Assembly (NCBI GenBank): GCA_028716165.1
Contig: JAQUQI010000007.1
Span: 1,191 to 65,190, forward strand
Length of the DNA stretch: 64,000 bases
Origin: Candidatus Omnitrophota bacterium
GTDB lineage: Bacteria; Omnitrophota; Gorgyraeia; JABMRG01
Direction of reading: 5' to 3'
Shown: one piece after another, positions 34,042 through 55,432 of the stretch
How the letters are laid out: the number at the start of each line of letters is the position of its first letter
Numbering within the stretch: position 1 is the stretch's first letter
Position numbers and translations under genes: made by a program
The notes under the pieces: generated by a model
The model's database searches: none
Seen by the model: only the letters and a program-made list of their open reading frames with translations
What the model was told of the DNA's origin: nothing

Positions 34042-35259
34042 GTGAAAGAACTGATAAGATTAAAATCCAGGGGGCTTAAAGAGGCGCTGATTAAATTTTA
34101 TGCGAAACTCGGAAGCATTGAAGTCAAACCGGGTTGTATAGGCGAGTTTATGGATATTGTTACCGGCGAAATGAAGGCTCTTAATTTTGACAAGGTAACC
34201 AAGGATAAATCCGGTAACCTGATAGGGATAATAAAAGGCTATCGGAATAAGGAATCCCTGGTGCTATTGTCTCATGTCAGTGCTGTTTCCGCAACTCGGC
34301 AAAAAATAGAGGGTTTGCACGGTAACGATATGGTGAGGTTTAAGTCCGGTATTATTACCAGCATTTATACAGGAGCCTTGCTCAAAAGGGCTATGCTTCC
34401 GTTGGAAGGTGATTTGATAGTTTGTTGTATTCCGCGGATGGAATGTTGCGCTTTTGGAATCAAATATCTCTTTGACAATTTTTTGAAAGATAAAACCAAG
34501 AAGATTAAAGGCGTTATTCTTTGCGAACCTACCGGTTTTAACATAAATCTCGGGCACAAGGGCAGGATGGAGTACGAGATCGTGGTAAAAGGCAAATTAA
34601 ATAAGAATTTTTTGGAGAACCGCGGAATCAACATGCTGGGCACGATGTTTCCTTTGATAAACGAACTGGAGAAAATTTCTAAAGAATTACCAAGTGATTT
34701 TAATCTTGGGCGTTCTGACTTAAGGATAAAAGATGTGCGTTACAGCGGTTATCGGCCGCAGGAGGAAATGAACGAATTCCGGATAGTGGTAGACAGGGGT
34801 TTTGTCCCGGAGGAAACCAAAAGGTTTATTCTGGATAAGGCCAAAAATTTGGCCAAGGCGGTATACAAACAGGAAACAGATATTACTGTAAATGCCCTCT
34901 TGGTTAAAGAGAAGATCAGGACTTACACAGGGCTTAAACTTTTATCTAAAAAGGAATTTAAGCCATGGGCTATGGATGGCCATCGCCCTTTTGCTTTAAA
35001 CTCGCTTAAGAGTATAACCGAAAGCGGGTTTAAGTCGGATTTCGGGTATTGGCAGGATATTGTTACCGAAGGCTCTTATACGTATGCCCAGCTTGGGATA
35101 CCCACTATAGGTTTTGGCCCGGGCTCGGAAAATGATCTGGATCCCGCGGAGAAGACGCTGGGCATAGATAAACTGGAAAAGGCGGTTTACGGCCAGGCGC
35201 TGATAATCCATCGCAACATAGGCATGCCGATATTCGGCTGGAGCACCGATGAGATTTAA
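34042..35259 (+). CDS. divergent M20/ArgE-DapE-like protein (putative deacylase)
   Basis: …ILCEPTGFNINLGHKGRMEYEIVVKGK resembles the M20 catalytic domain. No canonical HxD metal motif was seen. Confidence 0.35.
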   Translation: MKELIRLKSRGLKEALIKFYAKLGSIEVKPGCIGEFMDIVTGEMKALNFDKVTKDKSGNLIGIIKGYRNKESLVLLSHVSAVSATRQKIEGLHGNDMVRFKSGIITSIYTGALLKRAMLPLEGDLIVCCIPRMECCAFGIKYLFDNFLKDKTKKIKGVILCEPTGFNINLGHKGRMEYEIVVKGKLNKNFLENRGINMLGTMFPLINELEKISKELPSDFNLGRSDLRIKDVRYSGYRPQEEMNEFRIVVDRGFVPEETKRFILDKAKNLAKAVYKQETDITVNALLVKEKIRTYTGLKLLSKKEFKPWAMDGHRPFALNSLKSITESGFKSDFGYWQDIVTEGSYTYAQLGIPTIGFGPGSENDLDPAEKTLGIDKLEKAVYGQALIIHRNIGMPIFGWSTDEI

Positions 35260-36484
35260 AAAAAATACGGTAAACATACTGGTGCTTAATTGCGGCAGTT
35301 CGTCCTTGAAGTATAAGATAATAAAAATGCCGGGCGGCACCGAACTTGTGCGTGGAGAAGCCGAGAGGGTGGGCATAAAGACCCAGGGTGTTTCCCGCAT
35401 TACACATTTTTCTTGTGGGAAAAAAACGGTGGTGGAAGTACCGCTTGCCAATCATGCGGCCGCGCTTAAAAAATCCCTGGAGCTCATAGCACGAGACAGC
35501 GCGGAAAACTCTGATATATGTTTTGATGTTTTCGCGCACCGCTATGTTCATCCGGGGACATTGTTTTCCAAGACTATGAAAGTTGACAAAGTGGTTTTAC
35601 GCAAGTTAAAAGATACACTGCCGCTCGCGCCTATACATAATCCTATAATTTACCGTTTGATTGAATTCTGCTACGATGAATATTACAACATAAGACAGTT
35701 TATAGTGTTTGATACTTCTTTTCATAGATCCATTCCCCCGGAATTTTCCACTTACGCTTTACCGTTAAAGATTATTAAAAAGTATCATATCCGCAGGATA
35801 GGTTTCCACGGCCTGTCCCATCAGTATGTTATGGAGGAGGCCTGTAAATTTTTGGGGAAAGACAAATCTTCGCAGAGAATAATAAGCTGTCATCTGGGGA
35901 CCGGCGGTTCAAGCGTTTGCGCTATTAATAACGGCAAATCCGTAAACAATTCCATGGGGTATACCCCGCTTGAGGGCTTGATGATGAATACCCGCTGTGG
36001 CAATATTGATCCTGGCATAATATTCTACATAATGTTTAAAGAACGGTTTTCCCCTGAAGAGACCGAAAGTGTTTTTAACAACAAAAGCGGGATTTTGGGT
36101 GTGTTAAATTTTTCGTCCGATTTACGGGACGCTATCAGGGATATGAGGAATAATCCCAGGGCCCGGATGGTATTTGATATGTATATACGCCGGGTAAGGT
36201 CGTATGTAGGTTTTTATTCGTTGATATTGAAAAAAGCGGATATGTTGATTTTTACGGATTCGTTGGGGGTGTCCTGTCCGGATTTGCGCCAGGGTGTTTG
36301 CAGAGGCATGGAGTTATTGGGCATCCGGCTGGATGAAGGTAAAAACGCGGGCTGCCGAGGTAATATAGGAGATATCTCATCTGTTAGGTCGGAGACGAAA
36401 GTTCTCGTTATCCCTACGGACGAGGAAATTATGATCGCCCGGCAAGCATACAGGGAGTTGATGAAAAATGATACTGGTTGTTGA
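35249..36484 (+). CDS. ackA: acetate kinase
   Basis: Motifs ILVLNCGSSSLKYKI, FDTSFH and GFHGLSH are present. Confidence 0.85.
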   Translation: MRFKKNTVNILVLNCGSSSLKYKIIKMPGGTELVRGEAERVGIKTQGVSRITHFSCGKKTVVEVPLANHAAALKKSLELIARDSAENSDICFDVFAHRYVHPGTLFSKTMKVDKVVLRKLKDTLPLAPIHNPIIYRLIEFCYDEYYNIRQFIVFDTSFHRSIPPEFSTYALPLKIIKKYHIRRIGFHGLSHQYVMEEACKFLGKDKSSQRIISCHLGTGGSSVCAINNGKSVNNSMGYTPLEGLMMNTRCGNIDPGIIFYIMFKERFSPEETESVFNNKSGILGVLNFSSDLRDAIRDMRNNPRARMVFDMYIRRVRSYVGFYSLILKKADMLIFTDSLGVSCPDLRQGVCRGMELLGIRLDEGKNAGCRGNIGDISSVRSETKVLVIPTDEEIMIARQAYRELMKNDTGC

Positions 36485-37559
36485 TTATAATCTTAAAGAG
36501 ATTAAGGTCTGGGGATTCAAAGGAGAGCATGGTTCTTTGCCGCCGGTTTTTACGAAGGATGCTGATGAGATAACCGACGACAATGTTCTCCGGGATTTTA
36601 TTCGCGCTGTTTCCTGCATGGATACCGTTGAAGCTATTTCTTTCAGGATATTGTTTGGAGGCGATTATTTTAAAAATCCGGCGCATTTATGTCCTGGGTT
36701 TTTCTCCAGGTTCTCAAAACTTACGGATCTTTTTCCTTTTTATGTCCCCTTGACTGTTGAGATGTTGAAAAGATTTTACAGGGTATTTAAGAATGCCCGG
36801 CTCATTGCTTTTTTTGAGACGTCGTTTTTTTTGAGGTTACCGGATAAAGAAAGATATTACCCGCTGCCTTTTGAGTATTACCGGAATAATAAAATAAAAA
36901 AGCGGGGGTTTCACGGAATATTTCATGAAGCAAACGCCGGCATATTCCCGGAAAGCGGGAAAAACATATCAATGGTTTTTGACAAACAAACGACTATATG
37001 CGCTATTCGTAATAAGAGCCCGCTGTCCATAAGTCTGGGGTATACGCCGCTGGAAGGCATTATGTCCCGGACGCACTGCGGAGACTTGGATGCCGGGATA
37101 ATATTTTATCTCATGAATGTCCAGCATTTTTCGAGCTATAAAATTGACGAGATGATGAAGCAGGAGAGCGGATTCCTCGGCCTTACCGGTTATGACATTG
37201 AATTAAAAGATATGCTCAAGCTTAAAGGTAAAGACCCTAAGGTTGACTTGGCGTTTAATGTGTATAGCGCCCAGATAATGAAATATATAGGGGAGACGAT
37301 ATCTGTTATGGGAGGATTGAATAATATAATTATAGCTGGCGACAATATTGATATATTCATTCCTGTAATTTACGATGTCCTCAAAAAAATATCTTTTTTG
37401 GGTATAAACTTATTGCGATTACCGTGGGACAATAAGACAAGTTTAATTAATATAACTTCCGAAGAATCCGGAATAGGAGTCTATCTTAACCGAATGAGCT
37501 TTCCGGAAATATTATCGCTTTGGACCAGGAATCTGATTTTTGCGCCTGTCAAACTGTAA
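36468..37559 (+). CDS. acetate-kinase-like degenerate paralog
   Basis: It aligns to AckA (FETSFF, GFHGIFH, GYTPLEGIM) but lacks the N-terminal NCGSSS and HLGNGAS catalytic motifs. Confidence 0.6.
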   Translation: MILVVDYNLKEIKVWGFKGEHGSLPPVFTKDADEITDDNVLRDFIRAVSCMDTVEAISFRILFGGDYFKNPAHLCPGFFSRFSKLTDLFPFYVPLTVEMLKRFYRVFKNARLIAFFETSFFLRLPDKERYYPLPFEYYRNNKIKKRGFHGIFHEANAGIFPESGKNISMVFDKQTTICAIRNKSPLSISLGYTPLEGIMSRTHCGDLDAGIIFYLMNVQHFSSYKIDEMMKQESGFLGLTGYDIELKDMLKLKGKDPKVDLAFNVYSAQIMKYIGETISVMGGLNNIIIAGDNIDIFIPVIYDVLKKISFLGINLLRLPWDNKTSLINITSEESGIGVYLNRMSFPEILSLWTRNLIFAPVKL

Positions 37560-38151: not shown

Positions 38152-41100
38152 GTGAAGACAGTATTGAGAAGAGCTGTAGTTTTCATTGTTTTGCTTAGTT
38201 TTGTGTTTCCGAATACTATTTATGCCAATGATCTCAAAATTCACACCTTAAGGCAGATGTCAGCAGCTTTAAGCAATTTCAACAGCCGGTTTATTGATAA
38301 AGATTTCTTTTACGGAGAATTCAGTGATATAAAAAAAATATTAGACAGGGATATGTTCAGGGATTATGATTACCGGACAAGAGGCCGCGAAATTGACCCC
38401 CGCATAGCTTTTAGGATGGGGATTATCTGGGCGAGAATGGCCCTGGACAACATGTCCAGTTTTCATGTAGACAATAAAACTGTTATTTTTGCCCGGGATT
38501 GCCGTGACGTTAATCCCGAAATAGCCGAGGCTGTTATCGCGGGAGTAAGATATTGCGGGCTTAATGTAATTGATATTTCACAAACTATGCGTAACAGCGC
38601 CGCCGCTTATTCATGGTCTGTGATACAGCATAAGCCGCTTATGGGTATTTTTATGACCTCAAGTCATGTAACAGGCGATGGTGTATCAGGATTTAAAGTT
38701 AGCATAATGGGCAGAAACGGTAAACTGCAAAGCCTCACCACCAGAGAGATAAAAGATGTAAGTTATGGCCTGTTGACCCTGATGATAGAAGAGCCCGATA
38801 TTATAAACGCGTATAAAAGCCAGGATATGGGCAGTCTGAATGCCTGCCATGGCACAGAAACTGAAGCCGCGGATTTTATCACTTTATTAGGCAGGATAGT
38901 TTCAGGTGAACACAACAAAGAGCTGGCTGTCCGGGCAAGGACTGTTATGCGGTCAAAAGACCCGGCGGCAATGACCAGGCTGATGAACAATAGTATGGCA
39001 GGGCAACAGCCGTTGAAAGGCATGACGGTTGTTATAGATTCTGCCCATACACCAAGCGGTGTTATAGCTGAAAAGACGTTTGCTGATTTGGGGGCCGCGA
39101 TAATATCATTGCATGCCGAACCCATGCTTTTAAAAGGAAATCATAAGGCAGACCCGTCAAAGCCTGAAAATTTAGAAGACCTGAAAGCCGAGATGCTTAA
39201 ATCCGGAGCAGGCCTTGGCCTTGCTTTTGACCTTGACGGCGACAGAGGGGCTATTTGCGTGCCTGACGGAAGAGGCGGTGTAGACGTATTGTCACCGGAC
39301 AATGTTATGGCGGCTATATTGAAATTTCTCATTAAAGGGTGCGGTTATGAACAGACCGGACCGATTGCCGTGGTGCGTGATGTCTTGTCAACGCGGGGCG
39401 TTGACGACGAGGCAGAGCTGTATGGAGTGCGCGCGGAACAGACCGATGCCGGCTACGTCTTTTTAAAGGAAAGAGTCCGTTTTCTTCAGACCAACGGATT
39501 TACCGTCCCAATTTATGGAGAACGTTCCGGTCATATCTGGCTTGATGCCGCGGGCGAGTTTGAAAATCCAATAGCTGTAGCAGTGTTATTTGCCGTAATG
39601 AACTCTGACCTTCTTTTTAAATATAAACCCGTGGCCTATAAGCAGTCTCCCCGTTTTCAGCCGGAGTTTTCACAGCCGCTATTGGCCGTTCTTTCTTCTC
39701 ATAAGCACAACGATACGGGATGGAATTATAAAGAAGCGGTAGAATATCTTGTCAACGGAACCGGCCACAAGCCGCCGCAGAAGATTATAGCGCTTGGCAG
39801 GGACCACGCGATAAAAATTTTGTCAGAAGTGTTTAAAAAAGGCGCGGAGTTCAAGACTCCTATAGGTAAAATCAGCGTTGAGAGTTATGATACGTATAAA
39901 GACGACGAATCCGCGGGCGGGTTGTTTAGATACGCGGATATAGGTTTTTCAAGAAATGGAGAATATATAGGCAGATTCGTATTTCGCGCCTCATCCAATG
40001 ACCCTACGTTTGTTTGTTCTTTTGAAGCTGCTCATGGCAGTGGAGAGATTGGGGAAACTGTCAGCCTAAGATATATTTCCGTGGGAGGACTTGTTCTTGA
40101 TAGCCTGGAACAGCTTAAGTTAGCCTCTATTACCGGCGTGCCACAAGGCGTGCGCCAGACACTCGAAGACTATAGAAGCCTTATGAAGATACCGGCTGTT
40201 TCGGCCAATAATCCTATCTTCTTTGAATTTGTTTCAGCAGGGCAGACGCTCAACGGCGGGGTTGATTTTGAACCTATTCAAAAGCCCGGTTTTTTTCAAT
40301 CTATAAGCGAGGAGATGCTTGATAATATGGCTTTTGATCTTGCGTTCAGGACGGGAAAACCGGAAAGGCTTAAGATGCTGAATGAGATATTTGAAATAGC
40401 ATCTGTAAAAAAAATATTTCCCGCCTCAATACATAATCTATACATGGTAATGGGCAAAGGCTGGACAGGCGGTTTTACTGTTCCCGCCATAAATATTAGA
40501 GGGCTAACCTATTATACCGCCCGGGCGGCATTCAAAGCCGCTGTTAAGCGCAATGTCGGGGTAATGATATTTGAAATAGCAAGAAGCGAGTTAGGTTATA
40601 CCGGACAGGACGTATTGGAATACGCTGGCCAGATTACCTTGGCTGCAATGAGAGAAGGTTATGAAGGGCCTTTGTATTTCCAGATAGATCACGGCCAGGT
40701 CAATGCCAAAAAAGATTACGATTCAGAGATAAAGGCATTGAAAGACCTGTTCAGAGAAGCTATCGTTGACGCTAAATTCGGAAATATTGATGTGGATACA
40801 TCCACGCTGGCCCTGACAGAAGGCAGTCTCAAGGAACAGCAAATGCCGAACGCGCGCGCTATTGCTGAATTGATAAAAAATATCAGGTCTATAGAACCTG
40901 AAAACACCACCATATCTATAGGAGGCGAGGTAGGAGAAGTCGGCAACAGGAACACCACGCTTGATGACGTGGAGGCTTTCATGGACATATTAAACGGCAT
41001 GCTTACCGCCGATAATATATCCGTTGGTTTAAGCAAGTTGAGCATACAGACAGGAACGGCTCATGGAGGGGTCCCATTGCCGGACGGCAGTCTCGCGCAG

Positions 41101-42279
41101 GTAAACATTGATTTTGATATAATTGAAAAGGTAAGCGCATTAGTAAAAAAGAAATACGGCATGTCCGGGGCTGTCCAGCACGGCGCGTCCACCTTGCCTG
41201 ATGAGGCGTTTCATCATTTTGTTGATAAAAAAGCTTCTGAAATTCATCTTGCGACAGGATTTCAGAATATAATATTTGACAGCAAATATTTTCCGAAGGA
41301 ACTGCTCAACAGAATATATGAGATACTTCTGACGGATCCGGCCTTTGCCTCTGACAGGGCCAAGCTGGAATCCGGCAAACAGACAAAAGAGCAGTTTTTG
41401 TATTCAACAAGAAAAAAAGCGTTTGGAATACCGGAAATAAAGCTTGCAATGTGGACACTACCCGAAGAAACTATAGATAATATACTCAAGGAACTTGAGG
41501 AAAAATTCGGGTTTTTATTTGAACAATTGAATGTTGTTAATACTCTTAATCTGCGAAGATATGCCGTCAAAATACCTATCGGCAAATCCTCCTCCGCAGG
41601 TATCCTTGAACTCGACAAGCCTTATACCCTTACAGAGTACAACTTATTATCAGTCATAGATGAGTCTATACGCGAGAATAACGGTGTCCTGGCGAATACA
41701 CTTATTGAGTCCAAGCTCTCGGCAGAGCTTATCAGGCTTTGCCCTAAGTTTTTAGCAGATCAGGCCGGCCTTGAAAGAAACCACATTGTTGCCATTGATG
41801 ATAAGATGCTTCCCGAAGGCCATATATTCAATAAGTATCTTTTAAAAGATACGGCACAGCATCAGGCCCTGGAAGAGTCTCATGGCTGTATGATACGCTT
41901 GTTGTCCCAGCTGACAACAGATGAGTTGACAGGCAGAAACCTTATAATCATATCGGACCGCAGGAGCATAGAAGGATATGAAAAGGCCCTATATCTCAAT
42001 GTTGATAAACAAAGGATAGATGCCGGACTCCTGCTCGCCCCGTATATCGGTATAGCAAGGCTTTTGCTTTCCGCAAGAGAGGACATAGTAATTGACATAA
42101 CAAACGCCTTAAACAAGGACAACCTTTACAGTATGCTTTTTGGCAGGCCTGCCAAGGAAGATGATATAAGGAAATTCCTTATTGAAGGTATATATGAACT
42201 TCCGGCCCCTGCCATTGTCAATTATCAGCAGGCAGAGGACATGCACCGCGCCTCATTGGCCGCGTTGATAGCAGCTTAA
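38152..42279 (+). CDS. 1375-aa secreted multidomain protein: phosphomannomutase/phosphoglucomutase-like domain, class II fructose/tagatose-bisphosphate aldolase domain and a shared 233-aa C-terminal domain
   Basis: Signal peptide. PGM/PMM-like motifs TSSHVTGDG and LAFDLDGDRGAI. Class II aldolase motifs FTVPAINIRG, YFQIDHG, SIGGEVGEVG, TGTAHGG and VQHGAST. The C-terminus is identical to that of the next gene. Confidence 0.7.
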   Translation: MKTVLRRAVVFIVLLSFVFPNTIYANDLKIHTLRQMSAALSNFNSRFIDKDFFYGEFSDIKKILDRDMFRDYDYRTRGREIDPRIAFRMGIIWARMALDNMSSFHVDNKTVIFARDCRDVNPEIAEAVIAGVRYCGLNVIDISQTMRNSAAAYSWSVIQHKPLMGIFMTSSHVTGDGVSGFKVSIMGRNGKLQSLTTREIKDVSYGLLTLMIEEPDIINAYKSQDMGSLNACHGTETEAADFITLLGRIVSGEHNKELAVRARTVMRSKDPAAMTRLMNNSMAGQQPLKGMTVVIDSAHTPSGVIAEKTFADLGAAIISLHAEPMLLKGNHKADPSKPENLEDLKAEMLKSGAGLGLAFDLDGDRGAICVPDGRGGVDVLSPDNVMAAILKFLIKGCGYEQTGPIAVVRDVLSTRGVDDEAELYGVRAEQTDAGYVFLKERVRFLQTNGFTVPIYGERSGHIWLDAAGEFENPIAVAVLFAVMNSDLLFKYKPVAYKQSPRFQPEFSQPLLAVLSSHKHNDTGWNYKEAVEYLVNGTGHKPPQKIIALGRDHAIKILSEVFKKGAEFKTPIGKISVESYDTYKDDESAGGLFRYADIGFSRNGEYIGRFVFRASSNDPTFVCSFEAAHGSGEIGETVSLRYISVGGLVLDSLEQLKLASITGVPQGVRQTLEDYRSLMKIPAVSANNPIFFEFVSAGQTLNGGVDFEPIQKPGFFQSISEEMLDNMAFDLAFRTGKPERLKMLNEIFEIASVKKIFPASIHNLYMVMGKGWTGGFTVPAINIRGLTYYTARAAFKAAVKRNVGVMIFEIARSELGYTGQDVLEYAGQITLAAMREGYEGPLYFQIDHGQVNAKKDYDSEIKALKDLFREAIVDAKFGNIDVDTSTLALTEGSLKEQQMPNARAIAELIKNIRSIEPENTTISIGGEVGEVGNRNTTLDDVEAFMDILNGMLTADNISVGLSKLSIQTGTAHGGVPLPDGSLAQVNIDFDIIEKVSALVKKKYGMSGAVQHGASTLPDEAFHHFVDKKASEIHLATGFQNIIFDSKYFPKELLNRIYEILLTDPAFASDRAKLESGKQTKEQFLYSTRKKAFGIPEIKLAMWTLPEETIDNILKELEEKFGFLFEQLNVVNTLNLRRYAVKIPIGKSSSAGILELDKPYTLTEYNLLSVIDESIRENNGVLANTLIESKLSAELIRLCPKFLADQAGLERNHIVAIDDKMLPEGHIFNKYLLKDTAQHQALEESHGCMIRLLSQLTTDELTGRNLIIISDRRSIEGYEKALYLNVDKQRIDAGLLLAPYIGIARLLLSAREDIVIDITNALNKDNLYSMLFGRPAKEDDIRKFLIEGIYELPAPAIVNYQQAEDMHRASLAALIAA

Positions 42280-42431
42280 AATGTATTACGGAGACTAGTA
42301 TCAGATTCCTCGCTTCGCTCGGAATGACAGGCGTACTTTGCCTGTCATCCAGAGCGGCAGAAGGCGAAGCCAGAGTAGGCCGCGAAGGATCTGGGAGTGA
42401 CCCATGTGTCATCCAGAGCGGCGGAAGGCGA
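41580..42431 (+). repeat. copy 1 of an 852-bp, 100 %-identical direct repeat (coding C-terminus plus start of a repeat cluster)
   Basis: Identical to 44119–44970 by direct comparison. Confidence 0.9.
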
Positions 42432-42636
42432 GGCATGCATCGTTAGCGAAGGATCTGGGAGTGAAATGAGTATTAGATTCCTCGCTTCGCTTGGAATGAC
42501 AAAAGCTTCGCTCGGAATGACAGCGAGGGGCGCTTGAAATGACAGAAGCAGTGCCCCCAATGACAGGCGCACTTTGCCTGTCATCCAGAGCGGCACAAGT
42601 CGGGGCCAGAGTAAGCCGCGAAGGATCTGGGAGTGA
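42295..42636. repeat. mosaic repeat cluster E
   Basis: attagattcctcgcttcgctcggaatgaca…tgtcatccagagcgg… units. It overlaps the spurious N-terminal extension of the 42539 ORF. Confidence 0.85.
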
Positions 42637-42661
42637 AAGCAGTAAAACCCGGAGGGTTATT

Positions 42662-44818
42662 ATGAAAAAGATTATTATTAAAGCAATAAACATTGCTATG
42701 GCTATTGTTTTTTCTGCCTCGTCAATTGTTTCCGCGCAGGTTCTTGATAATAGCAATACGCAGTATTTACGCGCCCCTGCCGCGGCAGGTAATGTTACAG
42801 CGGATTTAACGCACGCGCTTTCCGCGCCGCCGGTAGAGACTTTTCCCTGGTGGCATATCACCGAGCGTAAAGTAGCAAAGTATATAGCCGAATTAAGCGG
42901 TACACGGGATGAACGTTATCGCGCGGCAATAGAGCTTGGCAGGCTTGGTAAGCATGCCGAACCTTCCATTCCGTATCTTATAAAGGTGATGCTTTCTGAT
43001 GAAGAAAAAGGCCTGCGGACTGCAAGCGCGGCTTCACTTGGGGCTATTGGTATTCCTTCGCAAGAGGTTGTGTCCGCATTAAACAAGGCCTTGGAGGACA
43101 GCGAATACGATGTGCGTGTCAAGGCCATGCGTTCTTTGGCGGCATTAGATAAGCTTACCGTTGAGATGAAAGTCAAAAGATATATAATGGACATGGGTGA
43201 TGCCGATCCTAATGTTCGCGCTAATGCAAGCAAAGAATTGTATAATATCGGCTACCCCGCCATTCCTATTATAGAGGCCAGGAAAAATTCGAATGAGGTT
43301 TTAGCTAAAGCCGTGGATTCATTATATTGGCGCATTCTCCGCGGCAAATTATTTGATGTAGAAAATTTGATGAGACAGTTAGAGGGTGAAAATAAGGCCG
43401 CGCAGGAAAGGGCATCTGATATATTCTTCCGGCTCGGTAATGAAGCGGTACCTATATTAATAGAGGCATTAGGTTCTAATAAGCATAAACTGCGTTTGCG
43501 GGTATCCGAGATACTTTTCCGGATAGGGCTTATCGCTGCCGATGACCTTGCAAACGCTTTAAAAGAAGACGATCTATACATAAGGACATATTCCGCTGAT
43601 GTCTTAACCAGGCTTGGCATTAAGTCCGCGCCGTTTGTTATTAGAGAGCTTGGCAATCGCACAAGTAATGCGCGTTTTTATGTAAAATCAATTCTTTTAA
43701 GATTAGGCCCCGAAGTTATTCCGATGCTTTCGGATGTACTGAATATAGGTGATAATTCAGCGTGTGAAGACGCTATTGATATTCTAGAAGAGTTTTCCAA
43801 ACAGCTTCCGGAAAGAAATATTGTTTTAATAAGGGCGTTAGGGCACAATAACTGGTTTGTAAGAGAGCAGGCATTGAAAGCGATTAAACGGATTGGGTTA
43901 TTGACAAAAGATATGGAGCTATTCAAATACAGCAAAGACTTAAAGGATGAAGCCTGCCCGGGATTTATTAAGCAGGATGCCTTGAGAGGGTTAAGCGTTT
44001 TGCCGGGTCCTGGATCACACAAGATTGTAACGGCGTTTAAAACTTTTGATCCAGATCTGGGTCATATGCGTGAAAACGCATTAGATGACCTTGCTCCCGG
44101 AGTTGATGAAGATAAAGGCGGCAAATCCTCCTCCGCAGGTATCCTTGAACTCGACAAGCCTTATACCCTTACAGAGTACAACTTATTATCAGTCATAGAT
44201 GAGTCTATACGCGAGAATAACGGTGTCCTGGCGAATACACTTATTGAGTCCAAGCTCTCGGCAGAGCTTATCAGGCTTTGCCCTAAGTTTTTAGCAGATC
44301 AGGCCGGCCTTGAAAGAAACCACATTGTTGCCATTGATGATAAGATGCTTCCCGAAGGCCATATATTCAATAAGTATCTTTTAAAAGATACGGCACAGCA
44401 TCAGGCCCTGGAAGAGTCTCATGGCTGTATGATACGCTTGTTGTCCCAGCTGACAACAGATGAGTTGACAGGCAGAAACCTTATAATCATATCGGACCGC
44501 AGGAGCATAGAAGGATATGAAAAGGCCCTATATCTCAATGTTGATAAACAAAGGATAGATGCCGGACTCCTGCTCGCCCCGTATATCGGTATAGCAAGGC
44601 TTTTGCTTTCCGCAAGAGAGGACATAGTAATTGACATAACAAACGCCTTAAACAAGGACAACCTTTACAGTATGCTTTTTGGCAGGCCTGCCAAGGAAGA
44701 TGATATAAGGAAATTCCTTATTGAAGGTATATATGAACTTCCGGCCCCTGCCATTGTCAATTATCAGCAGGCAGAGGACATGCACCGCGCCTCATTGGCC
44801 GCGTTGATAGCAGCTTAA
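42662..44818 (+). CDS. secreted HEAT/PBS-lyase-repeat protein carrying the same 233-aa C-terminal domain
   Basis: Start placed at MKKIIIKAINIAMAIVFSASS (signal peptide; GGAGGG Shine-Dalgarno). HEAT-like repeats (AAIELGRLGK…, VRVKAMRSLAAL…). The C-terminus from GKSSSAGILELD… is identical to that of 38152–42279. Confidence 0.7.
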   Translation: MKKIIIKAINIAMAIVFSASSIVSAQVLDNSNTQYLRAPAAAGNVTADLTHALSAPPVETFPWWHITERKVAKYIAELSGTRDERYRAAIELGRLGKHAEPSIPYLIKVMLSDEEKGLRTASAASLGAIGIPSQEVVSALNKALEDSEYDVRVKAMRSLAALDKLTVEMKVKRYIMDMGDADPNVRANASKELYNIGYPAIPIIEARKNSNEVLAKAVDSLYWRILRGKLFDVENLMRQLEGENKAAQERASDIFFRLGNEAVPILIEALGSNKHKLRLRVSEILFRIGLIAADDLANALKEDDLYIRTYSADVLTRLGIKSAPFVIRELGNRTSNARFYVKSILLRLGPEVIPMLSDVLNIGDNSACEDAIDILEEFSKQLPERNIVLIRALGHNNWFVREQALKAIKRIGLLTKDMELFKYSKDLKDEACPGFIKQDALRGLSVLPGPGSHKIVTAFKTFDPDLGHMRENALDDLAPGVDEDKGGKSSSAGILELDKPYTLTEYNLLSVIDESIRENNGVLANTLIESKLSAELIRLCPKFLADQAGLERNHIVAIDDKMLPEGHIFNKYLLKDTAQHQALEESHGCMIRLLSQLTTDELTGRNLIIISDRRSIEGYEKALYLNVDKQRIDAGLLLAPYIGIARLLLSAREDIVIDITNALNKDNLYSMLFGRPAKEDDIRKFLIEGIYELPAPAIVNYQQAEDMHRASLAALIAA

Positions 44819-44970
44819 AATGTATTACGGAGACTAGTATCAGATTCCTCGCTTCGCTCGGAATGACAGGCGTACTTTGCCTGTCATCCAGAGCGGCAGA
44901 AGGCGAAGCCAGAGTAGGCCGCGAAGGATCTGGGAGTGACCCATGTGTCATCCAGAGCGGCGGAAGGCGA
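44119..44970 (+). repeat. copy 2 of the 852-bp perfect direct repeat
   Basis: Identical to 41580–42431. Confidence 0.9.
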
Positions 44971-45232
44971 AGTACGCTTCGTTAGCGAAGGATCTGGAAG
45001 TGACCCATGTGTCATCCAGAGCGGCATAATCGGGGTAGAAGTCGTTAGCGAAGGATCTGGAAGTGACCCATGTGTCATCCAGAGCGGAACCGGCGAAGCA
45101 AGCTTCGTTAGCGAAGGATCTGGGAGTGAAATCAGTATTAGATTCTTCGTCGCGCCTTCGGCGCTCCTCTGAATGACAAGGAGGACGCTCGGAATGACAA
45201 TGAGAGGCTCGCAATGACAAGGGTGAGGCTCG
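44834..45232. repeat. mosaic repeat cluster F
   Basis: Three regularly spaced copies of a gttagcgaaggatctggaagtgacccatgtgtcatccagagcgg unit with about 20-nt variable cores. The right end matches cluster B. Confidence 0.85.
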
Positions 45233-45286
45233 GTCACCAAAACGTAAAAATCAAAATGTCTGTAATTATAATTTGTAGCCACTAAT

Positions 45287-45616
45287 ATGCGTCTGTTAAT
45301 AATATTTTTAATGTTGTCTTTGGTATTGTCTCCAGCGATAAACGTGGTTGCGCGACAGTTAAGTCTGCACGAAGTGTCTTTAGCAGACTGGATATCCTTT
45401 TCCGATATGGAAAAAGAGGTTTTTATTGCCGAAGCATGCAAGCATATGGTTGAGATTGAGAAAGAAAAATTTGTCATGATACCTGATGTAAAAATGATAG
45501 CCAGGGTCCTTGATTCGGGCATTAAAGGTGTAGACATTGATAAATCGGATATTTCAGTGTTCAGGCTTTTATATAGATGCCTCAAAGATACCGGATATTT
45601 TGCCCCCCGTTTATAG
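45287..45616 (+). CDS. small secreted protein (paralog of 32567–32899)
   Basis: Signal peptide. Conserved …ADWISFSDMEKEVFIAE.CKHMVEIE.EKFVMIPDVKMI… segment shared with its paralog. Confidence 0.6.
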   Translation: MRLLIIFLMLSLVLSPAINVVARQLSLHEVSLADWISFSDMEKEVFIAEACKHMVEIEKEKFVMIPDVKMIARVLDSGIKGVDIDKSDISVFRLLYRCLKDTGYFAPRL

Positions 45617-45667
45617 CCTATCCATATATTTCTATTAATTCTCTATATCACCCAATTATGCATTTGA

Positions 45668-45890
45668 ATGACAGGTGTTGTTCATGTGTCATCCAGAGCG
45701 GCATAAGCAAAGCAGGAGTCGTTAGCGAAGGATCTGGGAGGGATCCGTCTGTCATCCAGAGCGGCGGAAGGCGAGGCCAGAGTCGGCCGCGAAGGATCTG
45801 GGAGTGAAATGAGTATCAGATTCCTCGCTTCGCTCGGAATGACAAGGGCTTCGCTAAGGATGACAAGTTATCCGGAATGACAAAAGTGAC
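45668..45890. repeat. mosaic repeat cluster G
   Basis: tgtcatccagagcgg / gcgaaggatctggga units, then attcctcgcttcgctcggaatgaca. Confidence 0.8.
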
Positions 45891-46127
45891 ACCGTGCCTT
45901 GCAAAATGGGGACAGCGGCTTTCATAAAAATCAAAACGTTTGCGGTTGTTTTTATAAAAAATATAAATAATGTGTTGACACCCTGTCTTTGTATGCGGTA
46001 AAATGTTTTCAAATGAAAAAAATCATATAGCATGTCATCTAACATTCAAATTCTTAATTCGTTTTTATCTTTTTGGGTGAAGTGCCGCCAATCTTACATT
46101 ATAAATTATCAAAAAAGAGGAGGAGGT

Positions 46128-49100
46128 ATGAAAAAGCTGTGCGCTGTTTTATTGGTGTTTTCCATGATTGGCCTTATGCCTGTCAACAGTTTCGCGGCAA
46201 GCGCGACATGGGATGGCAGTGATAGCGGGCTTTGGGTCACAGGAGGAAACTGGGTAGGTGATTCGGCTCCCGGTATTGCCGACGGAACGATCGTCAGCAC
46301 CGACGTAGCGACATTTACAGGTGTGCTCAATAATGCTGTTACGGTTGATGATACCAGAAACGTTTCCGGTATCACCTTTGATGCCGCGGCAGGCGCTTTT
46401 ACGTTAAGCGGCAGTACTCTTTACCTTACAGCGAGCGGCACCGTGCAAAATCATGCCGACATTGCAACCACCCAGACAATTAATTCCAATATACTGTTAG
46501 GTGGTGATTACACCTTTACCAACATTGCCACAGACAATAGCAAGCTTATGAATTTTGGCGGAACAATAACAGGCTTTGCGGATACCGCGCAAACTCTTAC
46601 TCTTAGCGGCGGCAACACGGGATCAAATACATTAAGCGGTGTAATAAGTAACGGCAGCGGAACGGGTGTTTTAGGTATAACCAAGTCAGGCGCCGGCACA
46701 TGGATACTTTCAGGAAATAATACCTATACAGGAACAACTACTATCAGCGCCGGGACACTTACCGCGACAAACAGCGCAAATGCTCTCGGCGCCGGCGCGG
46801 TAGCAATCTCAGGCGGCACACTTAATCTTGCCAATGACACCGGGCTGGCTTTTGGCCGTAACGTGACTGTAAGCGGTGACGCGACTATTAATTCCGATAC
46901 ACTTACCGGTGTAGCCGGTGTCACACATACTTTGGGTACATTAAGCATAGGTGCTAATACTTTAACTGTCGGTCTTGCTACTACAGCCGCCAGCGGTGAG
47001 CAAGCACTTACCTTTGGCGATGTTACATTGACCGGTGCCGCTACTATTAACGCGAATACCGGTGTTGGCGGAGCAACCGGATTGCTGACTCTTGGCGCGG
47101 TAGGCGGTGACGGGCAAAATCTTACTATAGGTGGTTCGGCAGGTACCAATATAACCGGTATTATCGGAACAGGCGCAGGGACGCTTACCAAAAATGGCAC
47201 AGGCACACTTACCTTATCAGGCGTTAATACTTACAGCGGCGGCACAACAATCAGCGCCGGTGTTGTAAGCGCTACAACGTCAGCGGAAGCTTTGGGTACA
47301 GGCGCTATTACCGTTGCGGACGGCGCGGCACTTCAGGTGACAGGCGCTCTTGATTTTGATGAAGCGCTTACAATAAGCGGCACCGGTATAAGTTCAGGAG
47401 GTGCTCTTAGAAATATCAGCGGTAATACAAACTGGTCAGGCGTTGTAACTTTAGGCGCGAATGCCAGGATCAATTCGGATGCGGACACCCTGACATTAAG
47501 CGGCGCTACTATTGACGAGGCCTTTGACATAACCGTAGGCGGAGCGGGCAATACCGCTATAACAGGCATCATTGCCACAGGCGCTAATACAATTACAAAG
47601 GACGGCACAGGCACACTTACCTTATCAGGCGTTAATACTTACAGCGGCGGCACAACAATCAGCGCCGGGACACTGCAGGTAGGCAATAATTCAGCCTTAG
47701 GTGCCGGAGCTGTGAACAATAACGCGACATTAAATATAGGAACATATACAGTTGATATAGGAGCCGGTGTTTATACTCAAGGCGCCGGCAGCAGCCTGCA
47801 ATTGACTGCCAATTCTTCAACTGAATACGGCAGTATTGTGTCAACAGGCGACGCCGCGGATGCAGCCGCGGCAAGCACGGTTGATGTCACGGTAGGCGGT
47901 TACATACCCCATAGCACCGTGCTGACGGTCCTTAATACCGGCGCCGGCAGTACCATTGACGATACCTTGATTACGACTACATCAACCAGTTCAAAAATAA
48001 GTTTTACACCTTCAATGTCAAGCGGAAAACTTATCCTGACAGCAAACCGCTCGGCAACAGGTTTTTCCAGTAATGGCACGGATTCCAATGCTAAGGCCTT
48101 GGGTTATGTCCTTGACAATGTCACCAATCCCACGTCGGATATGACCACCGTGTTAAATACCCTTGAGGGACTTTCGGCAGCAAACGTTGATACCGCGCTC
48201 CAGACCCTTGAGCCATCAGTTGATGCCGGTGTTATAGGCGCCAGCAATCTTGCCGCCGGACAGTTTATACAGACTATCATAAGCCGTTTCGGAGTAGATA
48301 GAGGACCTTCGGGCGTTGCCACAGGAGACCCCAATATAAAGACAAAAGATATATGGGCAAAAGGTTTCGGAACATATGCCAAACAGGACAAGAGAAAGGG
48401 CATTGAAGGTTACAGGGCTGATGTCATAGGTGCTGCCGTCGGCGTGGATTTTGTCGCCACGGAAAAGGCCACTCTCGGTATCAGTGCGGGCTACGCGTAT
48501 AGCAAGATAAAACCCAAAAAGACAAGCCTCGGCAGAACGGAATCAGATAGTATGCAGGGTTCTTTATACTACAGCTATAATAATGAATTAAATTATATAG
48601 GTAAAGACGCCTTGTATTTTGATCTTATCGGTTCATTCGCTTGGAATATGTATGAAGGAAAGCGTAATGTGTCCGCAGGCAGTATAAGCAGGCAGGCAAA
48701 GTCCGATTATGACGGCCAGCAGTATACTGCATATGCTGAATCAGGCTACTATATCCCATCGGGCAACATAGATTTTGTCCCGCTCGCCTCTTTGCAGTAT
48801 AGCCGTCTTGAGATTGAAAAATACACCGAAAGCGGGGCTGATTCGCTGAACCTTACGGTTAATAAACAGCATTACGACCTTCTGGAATTAGGGCTCGGCG
48901 TAAAGGTCTCTTCAATAATGAAAAACGAAGGTTACGATGTCATCCCTTCGGTAAGGGGCAAATGGCTCTATGACTTCATAGGCGACAAAATGGAGACAAC
49001 CTCAAGATTTACCGGAGGAGGCGCTTCATTTAGCACAACAGGCGCCGAACCTGCAAAGAGTTCTTTTGACATAGGAGCCAGCCTTACGTTTTTGGGTAAA

Positions 49101-49193
49101 AACAATGTAAAGGTTGACTTTGATTATGACTTTAATTTTAGGGATGATTTTAATTCCCACAACGGTGCTATAACGGTTAAATATAGTTTTTAA
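46128..49193 (+). CDS. autotransporter outer-membrane protein with PATR-type passenger repeats
   Basis: Start at MKKLCAVLL after AAGAGGAGGAGG. Signal peptide. Repeated [20 protein letters not shown] motifs. The C-terminal beta-barrel ends …ITVKYSF. Confidence 0.8.
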
Positions 49194-51125: not shown

Positions 51126-51296
51126 TTATCTACAAACAACACTTCCCGTGCATACCACGGGCGAGACGGTACATCTTGCGGCATGCGCTATAGTGCCCTC
51201 TTCGGGATGTTCTATTGCCTCAATCTCCGGTATTTGATAGTTCTTTTTAGTGTTTTTTTTGGCAAAATGTTTAAAATCTTTCGCATCATTTTTCAT
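51126..51296 (-). CDS. RiPP precursor peptide 1 (56 aa)
   Basis: Manual minus-strand translation: MKNDAKDFKHFAKKNTKKNYQIPEIEAIEHPEEGTIAHAARCTVSPVVCTGSVVCR. The Shine-Dalgarno GGAGGAG lies 6 nt upstream. Below the ORF-track size cut-off. Confidence 0.7.
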   Translation of the reverse strand: MKNDAKDFKHFAKKNTKKNYQIPEIEAIEHPEEGTIAHAARCTVSPVVCTGSVVCR

Positions 51297-51312
51297 AGTT
51301 TTCTCCTCCAGT

Positions 51313-51486
51313 TTATCCGTCGCAAACTATAAATGAAGGGCATTCCGCGGGCGATACAGGGCATCCCGCGGCATGCGCTATAGTGCCCTCTTCGGGATGT
51401 TCTATTGCCTCAATCTCCGGTATTTGATAGTTTTTTTTAGTGTTTTTTTTGGCAAAATGTTTAAAATCTTTCGCATCATTTTTCAT
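51313..51486 (-). CDS. RiPP precursor peptide 2 (57 aa)
   Basis: Translation MKNDAKDFKHFAKKNTKKKYQIPEIEAIEHPEEGTIAHAAGCPVSPAECPSFIVCDG. Same Shine-Dalgarno. Its stop overlaps the Shine-Dalgarno of peptide 1. Confidence 0.7.
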   Translation of the reverse strand: MKNDAKDFKHFAKKNTKKNYQIPEIEAIEHPEEGTIAHAAGCPVSPAECPSFIVCDG

Positions 51487-51502
51487 AGTTTTCTCCTCCA
51501 GT

Positions 51503-51655
51503 TTATCCGTCGCAAACTATAAATGAAGGGCATTCCGCGGCATGCGCTATAGTGCCCTCTTCGGGATGCTCTATTGCCTCAATCTCCGGTATTTGGTATT
51601 TCTTCTTGGTTTTTTCGCGGTTAAGAATTTTATCTTTTGCATTCGTATTTTTCAT
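51503..51655 (-). CDS. RiPP precursor peptide 3 (50 aa)
   Basis: Translation MKNTNAKDKILNREKTKKKYQIPEIEAIEHPEEGTIAHAAECPSFIVCDG. It lies 21 nt downstream of the rSAM stop. The Shine-Dalgarno is weaker. Confidence 0.6.
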   Translation of the reverse strand: MKNTNAKDKILNREKTKKKYQIPEIEAIEHPEEGTIAHAAECPSFIVCDG

Positions 51656-55429: not shown

Positions 55430-55432
55430 GAT

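What the first reader, a model, noticed from the sequence alone, without database searches (positions are those of the whole stretch)
41580..44970. 852-bp 100 %-identical direct repeat gives two unrelated secreted proteins the same 233-aa C-terminal domain
Bases 41580–42431 and 44119–44970 are identical, with an offset of 2539 bp. The repeat covers the last 233 codons (GKSSSAGILELDKPYT…ASLAALIAA), the stop, and 152 bp of the following repeat cluster, after which the copies diverge. The N-terminal parts are unrelated: a PMM-like/class-II-aldolase fusion versus a HEAT-repeat protein. Both have signal peptides. The shared domain has no motif I can name. Perfect identity over coding and non-coding sequence argues for very recent duplication or gene conversion using the repeat cluster as an anchor. 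It could also reflect a cassette-like mechanism that places different heads on a common tail, perhaps a surface-anchoring or sorting domain. The two copies could also drive deletion of the intervening 1.7 kb.
Basis: seen in the sequence. Interest (0 to 1): 0.72.

Follow-up and report, generated by a model that had tools for sequence, protein, structure and literature searches.

The report
Shared tail domain copied between genes
Two neighbouring genes of an uncultured Omnitrophota bacterium carry a letter-for-letter identical 852-base end piece, a very recent copy of a previously undescribed protein tail domain that this phylum attaches to many different sugar-metabolism enzymes and scaffold proteins.

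Summary
Bases 41580-42431 and 44119-44970 are identical over exactly 852 bp: 232 codons, the stop codon and 152 bp of a repeat array.

The heads are a phosphohexomutase plus class II aldolase fusion (ORF1) and a HEAT-repeat protein (ORF2). Each has one signal-peptide-like N-terminal segment.

The shared tail is a real domain family with no annotation. It has no Pfam, NCBIfam, PHROGs or PDB match. An exhaustive search of 1.84 billion representatives found 36 relatives. In all of them the domain sits at the extreme C-terminus and ends ...ALIAA. All named members are Candidatus Omnitrophota. The AlphaFold model is confident (pLDDT 88.8) but has no fold match.

The heads of the relatives are sugar and nucleotide-sugar enzymes or HEAT/LRR/TPR scaffolds. 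Modules are separated by a recurring K-S-S-S-A-G motif.

ORF2's orthologue in a relative carries the same tail at 82% identity. That relative also keeps a relic of an ORF1-like gene just upstream, so the adjacency is old and the identity is new.

Best reading: a recent non-reciprocal copy or gene conversion. It is bounded by the limit of homology at the linker and by the intergenic repeat array. The tail is probably a common targeting or assembly module, but this is untested. A programmed cassette mechanism is not supported. An assembly artefact cannot be excluded without reads.

The parts
41580..42431 (+). Copy A of the exact 852-bp direct repeat (3' end of ORF1, the stop codon and 152 bp of the downstream array)
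   Evidence: identical to 44119-44970, maximal exact match. family D3.
44119..44970 (+). Copy B of the exact 852-bp direct repeat (3' end of ORF2, the stop codon and 152 bp of the downstream array)
38152..42279 (+). ORF1, 1375 aa: signal-like N-terminus with an HTLRQ motif, phosphohexomutase domains I-III, class II aldolase, the K-S-S-S-A-G linker and the C-terminal domain
   Evidence: Catalytic motifs are present: TSSH at residue 169, DLDGDR at 360, GERSGH at 456, IDHG at 845, TAHG at 969, QHGAS at 1009.
38152..38226 (+). ORF1 N-terminal signal-peptide-like segment (MKTVLRRAVVFIVLLSFVFPNTIYA)
   Evidence: the only hydrophobic window in the protein. Cleavage is inferred, not predicted with a dedicated tool.
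38353..39543 (+). PGM/PMM domains I-III of ORF1 (aa 68-464)
   Evidence: PF02878, PF02879 and PF02880 are all above their cut-offs.
40465..41277 (+). Class II fructose-bisphosphate aldolase domain of ORF1 (aa 772-1042)
   Evidence: PF01116, 49.2 bits against a cut-off of 25.5.
41584..41601 (+). K-S-S-S-A-G module-boundary motif, copy A (AAA TCC TCC TCC GCA GGT)
   Evidence: The motif occurs 81 times in 51.5 k residues of family proteins and 0 times in 24 k residues of ordinary PMMs.
41581..42279 (+). C-terminal domain (232 aa plus stop), copy A, ending ...ASLAALIAA
   Evidence: 36 relatives, always C-terminal; AF2 pLDDT 88.8.
42297..42656 (+). Intergenic array of 63/64-nt and 21-nt hairpin-forming repeats between ORF1 and ORF2. 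The first part lies inside repeat copy A.
   Evidence: No Rfam match.
42662..44818 (+). ORF2, 718 aa: signal-like N-terminus with a YLRAPAAAG motif, HEAT repeats, the K-S-S-S-A-G linker and the C-terminal domain
   Evidence: The orthologue P0001 / L001:8915-10696 is 72% identical over residues 229-709.
42662..42736 (+). ORF2 N-terminal signal-peptide-like segment (MKKIIIKAINIAMAIVFSASSIVSA)
42896..43894 (+). HEAT-repeat region of ORF2
   Evidence: PF13646 with E 1e-19, plus PF02985 and PF03130.
44123..44140 (+). K-S-S-S-A-G motif, copy B
44120..44818 (+). C-terminal domain (232 aa plus stop), copy B
44836..45240 (+). Intergenic repeat array downstream of ORF2. The first part lies inside repeat copy B.

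Best explanation
The window comes from a Candidatus Omnitrophota genome. Both genes belong to a class of modular proteins specific to this phylum. Each protein has an N-terminal Sec-type signal or anchor followed by a (T)LR...SSAG motif, then one or more modules, then one terminal domain of about 190-230 aa that always ends the protein with ...ALIAA. The modules are sugar or nucleotide-sugar enzymes or HEAT/LRR/TPR scaffolds, and they are separated by a K-[STA]-S-S-[AS]-G punctuation motif.

The 852-bp identity is the footprint of one very recent non-reciprocal transfer, either gene conversion or a short segmental duplication. It copied the whole 3' module (linker motif, terminal domain, stop and the first 152 bp of the downstream array) from one neighbour to the other. 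The direction was most likely from the HEAT gene (ORF2) to the mutase-aldolase gene (ORF1).

On the 5' side the tract stops where homology between the two genes stops, at the start of the linker and tail module. On the 3' side it was resolved inside the REP-like intergenic array, where background homology of 80-90% continues.

The tail itself most likely acts as a non-catalytic targeting or assembly module that brings different heads to the same place or complex.

Shown: the identity, the domain family, its strictly terminal position, the variety of heads, the punctuation motif, and the ancestral adjacency of the two gene types. Inferred: the direction of transfer, the recombination mechanism and the function of the tail.
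For: - The repeat is exact, with a sharp 5' end and a decaying 3' end inside the array.
- Zero differences in 852 bp gives a 95% upper bound of about 0.35% divergence. The orthologous tail in L001 differs by 18.5% at DNA level.
- The ORF2 orthologue in a related Omnitrophota MAG carries the same tail at 82% aa identity and is colinear across the head-tail junction.
- Three independent assemblies of that relative agree.
- L001 8729-8842 encodes a 38-aa relic of ORF1 residues 398-435 (68% identity, E 4e-10) about 70 bp upstream of the open frame that holds the HEAT orthologue (8915-10696). The pairing of the two genes is therefore old while the identity is new.
- The closest homologue of the ORF1 head, P0028, is 55% identical over 704 aa. 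Its tail is only about 28-32% identical and belongs to another tail cluster. The window's tail clusters with tails on HEAT and LRR heads.
- Family level: 36 relatives, all with the domain at the extreme C-terminus. The core and the terminal ALIAA are conserved.
- Heads include PGM/PMM, UDPGP, fucose pyrophosphorylase, cupin and SIS glucose-6-phosphate isomerases, HAD, GDP-mannose dehydratase/epimerase, FGGY, ROK, GHMP and adenylate kinases, aldose epimerase, HEAT, TPR and LRR.
- The punctuation motif is strongly enriched: 81 occurrences against 0 in controls.
- The AF2 model is confident: pLDDT 88.8, pTM 0.88.
- The junction in ORF1 is in frame and sits exactly at the family's module boundary.
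Against: - No reads or second assembly of this genome could be found, so the two-copy state is unverified. Consensus polishing could have erased a few real differences.
- The ancestral tail of ORF1 is unknown. If it was as diverged as P0028's, homologous conversion would have had almost no 5' homology to work with, and the event would be an illegitimate or microhomology-mediated replacement instead.
- Tail clusters may follow lineage rather than head type, which weakens the argument for direction.
- Nothing tests the proposed targeting or assembly role. The tail has no transmembrane segment and no known sorting motif.
- Many heads are ATP- or UTP-dependent enzymes. An extracytoplasmic location, which is what a cleaved signal peptide implies, would be odd for them.
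Confidence: 0.6

Rival explanations
1. Assembly or polishing artefact. The genome has one copy of the tail, or two diverged copies, and the assembler or consensus polisher produced two identical ones.
For: The window's proteins are absent from every collection searched, so there is no independent assembly. The region is full of repeats that confuse assemblers. 100% identity is what mis-mapped polishing reads would produce.
Against: Both junctions are in frame. Both lie exactly at the K-S-S-S-A-G module boundary that the whole family uses. Both genes have the complete family architecture: signal, LR motif, head, linker and tail. A PMM-type head with this kind of tail exists elsewhere (P0028). 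A short-read assembler would normally break at an 852-bp exact repeat rather than resolve two copies 1.7 kb apart.
Confidence: 0.1
2. The copy is real, but the tail is a removable pro-domain: an intramolecular chaperone or self-processing module cleaved off at K-S-S-S-A-G. This would work like the C-terminal chaperone domain of phage tail spikes. It would not be a lasting anchor or docking module.
For: The domain is strictly terminal and occurs once per protein. A conserved Ser-rich motif lies immediately in front of it, and the same motif punctuates all module boundaries. In the model the linker is disordered while the domain is well folded. West-Roberts et al. (10.1101/2023.11.21.568195) already proposed proteolytic processing of Omnitrophota giant proteins.
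Against: There is no Peptidase_S74 or any other protease hit. No fold match was found to known chaperone domains. The only invariant polar residues are R106 and S125, with E219 nearly invariant, and there is no recognisable catalytic dyad or triad.
Confidence: 0.2
3. The tail is a ligand-binding or catalytic domain, for example one that senses a sugar phosphate or nucleotide. It is shared because the heads act in one pathway, not because it targets them anywhere.
Against: All structural scores are below significance. The same tail sits on pure scaffold proteins (HEAT, LRR, TPR) with no enzyme module. The most conserved part is the very C-terminal helix, not a loop-rich pocket.
Confidence: 0.12
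4. Programmed cassette mechanism. A dedicated, recurrent recombination system swaps tails or heads at the linker motif, as in antigenic variation or shufflons.
For: The 5' end of the tract coincides with the linker motif. The family shows extensive module shuffling at that motif. For example, the PMM head is joined to an aldolase here, to a transaldolase, PGI or UDPGP elsewhere, or directly to the tail in P0028.
Against: There are only two copies in 64 kb and no silent cassettes. There is one tail per locus in four other loci. No recombinase lies next to the genes. The motif's codons vary at synonymous positions between genomes, so the conservation is at protein level, not at a DNA site.
Confidence: 0.05

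Closest known systems
Multi-enzyme long proteins of Omnitrophota ('Archaeovorins' and related; West-Roberts et al. 2023, bioRxiv 10.1101/2023.11.21.568195; 2026 preprint 10.64898/2026.06.07.730766)
   Same: The phylum is the same. Both have N-terminal signal or transmembrane segments. The domain content overlaps: PGM/PMM, fructose-bisphosphate aldolase, glucose-phosphate isomerase, ROK, HAD, and HEAT/TPR scaffolding. The same puzzle applies: cytoplasm-type sugar enzymes are predicted to lie outside the membrane.
   Different: ORF1 and ORF2 are ordinary-sized (1375 and 718 aa), not giant. The text searches of those two papers returned no passage describing the terminal ...ALIAA domain or the K-S-S-S-A-G punctuation motif. 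Neither paper was read in full.
C-terminal sorting or secretion domains shared by diverse cargo (T9SS CTD, autotransporter beta-domain, PEP-CTERM, LPXTG)
   Same: The logic is the same: one conserved module at the extreme C-terminus of many unrelated, signal-peptide-bearing proteins, once per protein.
   Different: There is no sequence or fold relationship. The prediction is a 230-aa alpha/beta plus helical domain, not a beta-sandwich, a beta-barrel or a motif followed by a transmembrane helix. No processing enzyme or partner has been identified.
Dockerin-cohesin assembly of cellulosomes
   Same: Different catalytic heads and scaffolds share one small non-catalytic module that could assemble them into a single complex. 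Dockerin-bearing giant proteins do exist in Omnitrophota.
   Different: There is no PF00404 hit and no Ca-binding repeats. The domain is much larger and strictly terminal, and no cohesin-like partner is known.
Ectopic gene conversion or concerted evolution between paralogous gene segments, with tract ends set by the limits of homology
   Same: The tract is perfectly identical and lies in otherwise unrelated neighbouring genes. One end is at the homology boundary and the other end is inside dispersed repeats.
   Different: The recipient's earlier state is unknown, so replacement of a very diverged or absent tail by non-homologous joining cannot be excluded.
C-terminal intramolecular chaperone domain of phage tail spikes and endosialidases (Peptidase_S74)
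   Same: A common, strictly C-terminal module on unrelated heads, preceded by a conserved Ser-containing site.
   Different: There is no Pfam, PHROGs or structural match, and no evidence for cleavage.

Membership tests
New Omnitrophota C-terminal domain family (defined here by alignment A1) | Significant sequence similarity over the roughly 165-aa core (GTIxIND ... LGCxIRL ... IIIS ... LPxP ... ALIAA) | tested here: met
   36 hits, with E-values from 4.6e-114 down to the 1e-3 limit. R106, L107, S125, A159, P210 and A232 are invariant.
New Omnitrophota C-terminal domain family (defined here by alignment A1) | The domain ends exactly at the protein C-terminus and occurs once per protein | tested here: met
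   the match ends at the last residue in 35 of the 36 relatives (P0024: query 55-231 matched to residues 1501-1681 of 1682) and in both window copies. There are no internal copies.
New Omnitrophota C-terminal domain family (defined here by alignment A1) | Restricted to Candidatus Omnitrophota | tested here: inconclusive
   All named cluster members and both GTDB loci are Omnitrophota. One member (P0037) is labelled Margulisiibacteriota, but it comes from the same metagenome as L001. Most members are unnamed metagenome proteins.
T9SS C-terminal sorting domain (Por_Secre_tail) | Match to the Pfam or TIGRFAM model; an 80-100-aa beta-sandwich | tested here: not met
   There are no Pfam or NCBIfam hits. 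The model is alpha/beta plus helical and 232 aa long.
Autotransporter beta-domain | PF03797 match; a C-terminal beta-barrel ending in an aromatic residue | tested here: not met
   There is no hit for the tail. The neighbouring gene 46125-49193 does match (E 2e-57) and ends in ...YSF.
PEP-CTERM / LPXTG / GlyGly-CTERM type sorting signals | A short motif followed by a hydrophobic transmembrane helix and a basic tail at the C-terminus | tested here: not met
   neither protein has a hydrophobic window outside the N-terminus. The C-terminus is an amphipathic helix packed into the domain.
Dockerin type I | PF00404 match with duplicated Ca-binding loops | tested here: not met
   no hit.
Peptidase_S74 intramolecular chaperone | PF13884 match or structural similarity to endosialidase C-terminal domains | tested here: not met
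alpha-D-phosphohexomutase superfamily (ORF1 head) | Domains I-III with the phosphoserine loop (T/S-x-S-H), the metal loop (D-x-D-x-D-R) and the sugar loop (G-E-x-S-G) | tested here: met
   PF02878, PF02879 and PF02880 are above their cut-offs. TSSH at 169, DLDGDR at 360, GERSGH at 456. Domain IV (PF00408) was not detected. The meaning of the motifs rests on established knowledge of the superfamily.
Class II fructose/ketose-bisphosphate aldolase (ORF1 middle module) | PF01116 match with the three Zn-ligand histidines | tested here: met
   49.2 bits against 25.5. IDHG at 845, TAHG at 969, QHGAS at 1009. The assignment of the histidines is by motif analogy; activity is not testable here.
Ectopic gene conversion / recent segmental duplication | An identical tract, far more similar than orthologues or other paralogous repeats, that ends where homology ends | tested here: met
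   100% identity against 81.5% for the orthologue and 78-94% for other repeats. The 5' end is at the head-tail boundary and the 3' end is inside the homologous array.
Ectopic gene conversion / recent segmental duplication | Both copies physically present in one molecule | not testable with these tools
   No reads are available, and no second assembly exists.
Giant 'Archaeovorin'-type proteins | Very long polypeptide (tens of thousands of residues) combining many enzyme and adhesion domains | tested here: not met
   ORF1 is 1375 aa and ORF2 is 718 aa. Some relatives that carry the tail reach 5.4-5.7 k residues.

The most novel reading that the evidence does not exclude
The ...ALIAA terminal domain and the K-S-S-S-A-G punctuation motif together mark an Omnitrophota-specific export and assembly system. 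This system would place catalytically intact, cytoplasm-type sugar-phosphate and nucleotide-sugar enzymes, with HEAT/LRR/TPR scaffolds, outside the cytoplasmic membrane as a modular multi-enzyme complex, for instance to process the contents or envelope of prey or host cells. Its parts would be re-assorted between genes by recombination at module boundaries. The 852-bp identity would then be a tail exchange caught almost as it happened.
Probability: 0.15. Interest if true: 0.85.

Novelty: new variant of a known kind. Interest (0 to 1): 0.6.

Why it matters
Omnitrophota are abundant, uncultured and probably predatory or host-dependent nanobacteria. Their long multi-enzyme proteins are a current puzzle: nobody knows where these proteins act, whether they are processed, or how they are assembled.

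This finding supplies two concrete handles that neither Pfam/NCBIfam nor the passages searched in the two recent Omnitrophota surveys describe. The first is a well-folded terminal domain with no structural relative, shared by dozens of different heads. The second is a short punctuation motif at every module boundary. Both can be used to catalogue the system in genomes. Both can also be tested directly by proteomics for cleavage, by localisation of tail fusions, and by complex prediction.

The identical copy shows that whole modules are still being moved between genes. The exact repeat is also a practical warning for assembly and binning, and it is a potential deletion hotspot.

Tried and rejected
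- Word-index homology search with the tail alone found nothing. With the profile it found only 3 proteins. This was a sensitivity limit of the tool, not true absence, because the exhaustive search found 36.
- Single-sequence AlphaFold was useless (pLDDT 35). The run with the 31-sequence alignment worked.
- A PDB sequence profile search found nothing. PHROGs found nothing.
With the narrow alignment it gave two Omnitrophota loci.
- The metagenome scan returned only the same contig as L001.
- Exact look-ups of ORF1 and ORF2 found no other assembly, so the two-copy state could not be checked independently.
- I looked for a third tail in the window. ORF 15145-18396 has the family's N-terminal style and ends ...GNAA, but profile comparison was negative.
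- I tested whether another Omnitrophota tail type (P0044/53/54, ending ...IE.AA) is a distant relative. hhalign gave E 0.016 in the correct register, which is inconclusive.
- I considered a CRISPR array for the 63/64-nt repeats. This was rejected because the 'spacers' are only about 22 nt long and resemble one another.
- Rfam has no family for the 63/64-nt repeats.
- I looked for a conserved DNA recombination site at the linker. This was rejected because of synonymous variation between genomes.
- A literature search for the motif strings found nothing relevant.

Full report
**1. The observation**

Window 41580-42431 and 44119-44970 are identical. 852 bp is the maximal exact match, and the offset is 2539 bp (repeat family D3). 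Upstream of 41580 the two sequences are no more alike than chance. Downstream of 42431 they stay similar for another 33 bp with 5 mismatches, so BLAST reports 885 bp at 99.4%. They then lose register because the two intergenic arrays differ in unit number.

The tract holds 232 codons (41581-42276), the stop codon and 152 non-coding bases. All other repeats in the window are 78-94% identical. The only corrections are the codon count and the likely ORF2 start at 42662, which is preceded by GGAGGG.

**2. The two genes**

ORF1 (38152-42279, 1375 aa) matches PGM_PMM domains I-III and the class II aldolase family above Pfam cut-offs (NCBIfam agrees). It retains the phosphoserine loop (TSSH at 169), the metal loop (DLDGDR at 360) and the sugar loop (GERSGH at 456) of phosphohexomutases. 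It also retains three histidine motifs of class II aldolases (IDHG at 845, TAHG at 969, QHGAS at 1009). The meaning of these motifs rests on established knowledge of those families. ORF1 therefore looks catalytically competent.

ORF2 (42662-44818, 718 aa) is a HEAT-repeat protein.

Each protein has exactly one hydrophobic segment. It lies at the N-terminus, is preceded by basic residues and is followed by a small-x-small site. This is signal-peptide-like, but no dedicated predictor was available.

**3. The shared tail is a real, unannotated domain family**

- The 232-aa tail has no Pfam, NCBIfam or PHROGs match. A PDB sequence search found no relative.
- A word-indexed search missed everything. 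An exhaustive phmmer scan of 1.84 billion cluster representatives found 36 proteins, 6 of them below E 1e-30.
- In all of them the match lies at the C-terminal end, and in 35 of the 36 it runs to the very last residue (P0024 stops one residue short). The proteins range from 88 to 5707 aa, and all end ...A-[LAF]-I-[AS]-A.
- The alignment shows a conserved core of about 165 aa (GTIxIND, LGCxIRL, IIIS, LPxP and the terminal helix). R106, L107, S125, A159, P210 and the final Ala are invariant.
- With this alignment AlphaFold2 gives a confident model (pLDDT 88.8, pTM 0.88). The linker is disordered. An N-terminal helical part is followed by a small parallel sheet with flanking helices and a C-terminal helix packed into the domain.

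**4. Who has it, and on what**

Both genome loci retrieved are Candidatus Omnitrophota MAGs. Every named cluster member is a 'hypothetical protein' of Omnitrophota. One further member is labelled Margulisiibacteriota, but it comes from the same metagenome as L001.

The heads are strikingly coherent:
- PGM/PMM
- UTP-glucose-1-phosphate uridylyltransferase
- fucose pyrophosphorylase
- cupin-type and SIS-type glucose-6-phosphate isomerase
- HAD phosphatase
- GDP-mannose dehydratase/epimerase
- FGGY, ROK, GHMP and adenylate kinases
- nucleotidyl transferase
- aldose 1-epimerase
- PHP
- pure HEAT, TPR or LRR scaffolds

Nearly all full-length members begin with the same kind of signal-like segment, followed within about 15 residues by (T)LR and a small-residue SSAG-like stretch. 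ORF1 has HTLRQMSAAL and ORF2 has YLRAPAAAG.

**5. A punctuation motif**

K-[STA]-S-S-[AS]-G immediately precedes the tail. It also recurs between modules of the longer proteins. It occurs 81 times in 51.5 k residues of family members, 0 times in 24 k residues of ordinary phosphomannomutases, and 6 times in 49 k residues of Omnitrophota PMM-head proteins. It sits right in front of recognisable domain starts, for example the Rossmann GxGxxG of the epimerase in P0024.

In ORF1 a degenerate copy (EFVSAG, residue 695) marks the mutase/aldolase boundary. This is exactly where the homologue P0028 has RTSSAG followed directly by its tail. The motif's codons differ at synonymous sites between genomes. 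The conservation is therefore at protein level, and there is no fixed DNA site. No paper in the held library mentions the motif.

**6. History of the identical copy**

- The HEAT gene has an orthologue in a related Omnitrophota MAG (L001:8915-10696, P0001). It is 72% identical over residues 229-709, with the tail at 82% aa and 81.5% nt identity, and it is colinear through the head-tail junction. Two more assemblies of that species show the same single-tail arrangement. The tail is therefore native to ORF2.
- About 70 bp upstream of the open frame that holds that orthologue (L001 8915-10696), and about 180 bp before its likely MRKAVIV start, L001 8729-8842 encodes 38 residues that are 68% identical to ORF1 residues 398-435 (E 4e-10). 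This piece is cut off by stops and surrounded by AT-rich non-coding DNA. It is a relic of an ORF1-like gene.
- The mutase gene and the HEAT gene were therefore already neighbours in the common ancestor. The orthologous tails have since diverged by 18.5%, yet the two tails within the window differ at 0 of 852 positions. The Poisson 95% bound is about 0.35%. The identity is therefore recent and secondary.
- The nearest homologue of the ORF1 head (P0028, 55% over 704 aa) carries a tail of a different cluster, at 28-32% identity to the window's. The window's tail clusters with those on HEAT and LRR heads. This favours transfer from ORF2 to ORF1. The caveat is that tail clusters may follow lineage rather than head type.
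- The 5' end of the tract lies where the two genes stop being homologous. The 3' end lies inside the dispersed 63/64-nt repeat array, where background similarity continues. This pattern is what a homology-guided non-reciprocal event resolved in the array would leave. If ORF1's previous tail was very different or absent, the 5' join must have been illegitimate or microhomology-mediated, and it would have been kept because it is in frame at a module boundary.

**7. Why not an artefact or a cassette system**

No reads or second assembly exist in the collections, so an artefact cannot be excluded. However, both junctions are in frame and fall exactly at the family's module boundary, and both genes show the complete family architecture.

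For a programmed cassette system I found no silent copies, one tail per locus in four other loci, no nearby recombinase and no DNA-level site.

**8. What the tail does**

Nothing here tests function. Several features point to a non-catalytic module that gives different heads a common destination or partner, in the manner of sorting tails or dockerins. The domain is strictly terminal and occurs once per protein. It is found on enzymes and on pure scaffolds alike. Its last helix is the most conserved part. It co-occurs with Sec-type N-termini.

It is not a member of any known family of that kind (see the membership table). It has no transmembrane segment.

The main rival is a removable pro-domain or chaperone cleaved at the motif. 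A ligand-binding role is a weaker rival.

A real difficulty for any extracytoplasmic model is that many heads need ATP or UTP. West-Roberts et al. noted the same puzzle for sugar enzymes in Archaeovorins. The 2026 survey describes sugar-metabolism and HEAT modules in membrane-associated long proteins. In the passages my text searches returned, neither paper mentions this tail or the motif.

**9. Verdict**

The repeat is real in the sequence as given, and it is best explained as a very recent copy of a whole 3' gene module between two long-standing neighbours. The mechanism of copying is ordinary. What it exposes is not: an undescribed, structurally unmatched terminal domain and a punctuation motif that organise a modular, Omnitrophota-specific class of signal-bearing sugar-enzyme and scaffold proteins.

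Noticed in passing
L001 8729-8842 (also present in L003, L009, L010): A 38-aa relic of an ORF1-like phosphohexomutase gene (68% identical to ORF1 residues 398-435). It lies about 70 bp upstream of the open frame that holds the HEAT-tail orthologue (L001 8915-10696) and is surrounded by AT-rich non-coding DNA. The mutase gene was lost in that lineage.
   Followed up: yes
window 32207-33256 and 44979-45874: A module of about 1 kb (repeat array, then a small ORF of about 109 aa with a signal-like N-terminus, then another repeat array) occurs twice at 80-88% identity. The small ORFs are at 32587-32897 and 45287-45616. They have no Pfam or PHROGs match. The module could be a mobile or recombinogenic unit.
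   Followed up: partly
window, about 23.4, 32.2, 33.1, 37.6, 42.3, 44.9, 45.7, 49.3, 53.7-54.2, 60.5 and 61.2 kb: Intergenic arrays of hairpin-forming 63/64-nt units (GTCATCCAGAGCGG...GCGAAGGATCTGGGAGTGA) and 21-nt units (CGCTCGGAATGACA...) lie between many genes. They are 78-94% alike and have no Rfam family. They are not CRISPR, because the variable parts are about 22 nt long and resemble one another.
   Followed up: partly
window 15145-18396: A 1083-aa ORF with no Pfam hit. It has the same N-terminal style as the family (a hydrophobic segment followed by NTLRPISS) and ends ...KAIGNAA. Profile comparison with the tail family was negative.
   Followed up: partly
P0039-P0083 (Omnitrophota PMM-head proteins): The ORF1-type mutase head is fused in other genomes to transaldolase, PGI plus a response regulator, UDPGP or HAD. 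It ends in at least three other conserved tail types, for example ...NPW..LP.I...LN.L....IE.AA and GGIDLN...FDPAMIAQFKRGDFSG...PLLG. The first of these aligns weakly with the tail studied here (hhalign E 0.016).
   Followed up: partly
L004 1-9278: The PMM-tail gene P0028 lies downstream of a giant gene (>7000 aa) and a 742-aa gene. Both contain the K/R-[ST]-S-S-A-G motif, but neither ends in this tail.
   Followed up: no
window 51150-51540 and 54000-54099: Two tandem duplications: a 190-nt unit repeated 2.1 times at 95% identity, and a 41-nt unit repeated 2.4 times at 100%. They are further signs of active repeat turnover in this region.
   Followed up: no
window 35249-37559: Two adjacent acetate-kinase-family genes lie just upstream of ORF1. 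The second matches only part of the profile (E 9e-43, positions 80-354).
   Followed up: no
window 46125-49193 and 54605-60439: An autotransporter with PATR repeats lies next to ORF2. About 10 kb further on there is an AAA_22 ATPase and two secretin genes, one of them with a TPR tail. Secretin and pilus loci near long Omnitrophota genes were noted by West-Roberts et al.
   Followed up: no
P0037 / L008 (Ga0265297_10001348): A protein bearing the tail is labelled Candidatus Margulisiibacteriota in NCBI. It comes from the same metagenome as the Omnitrophota contig L001. This may be a binning or label issue, or the family may extend beyond Omnitrophota.
   Followed up: no
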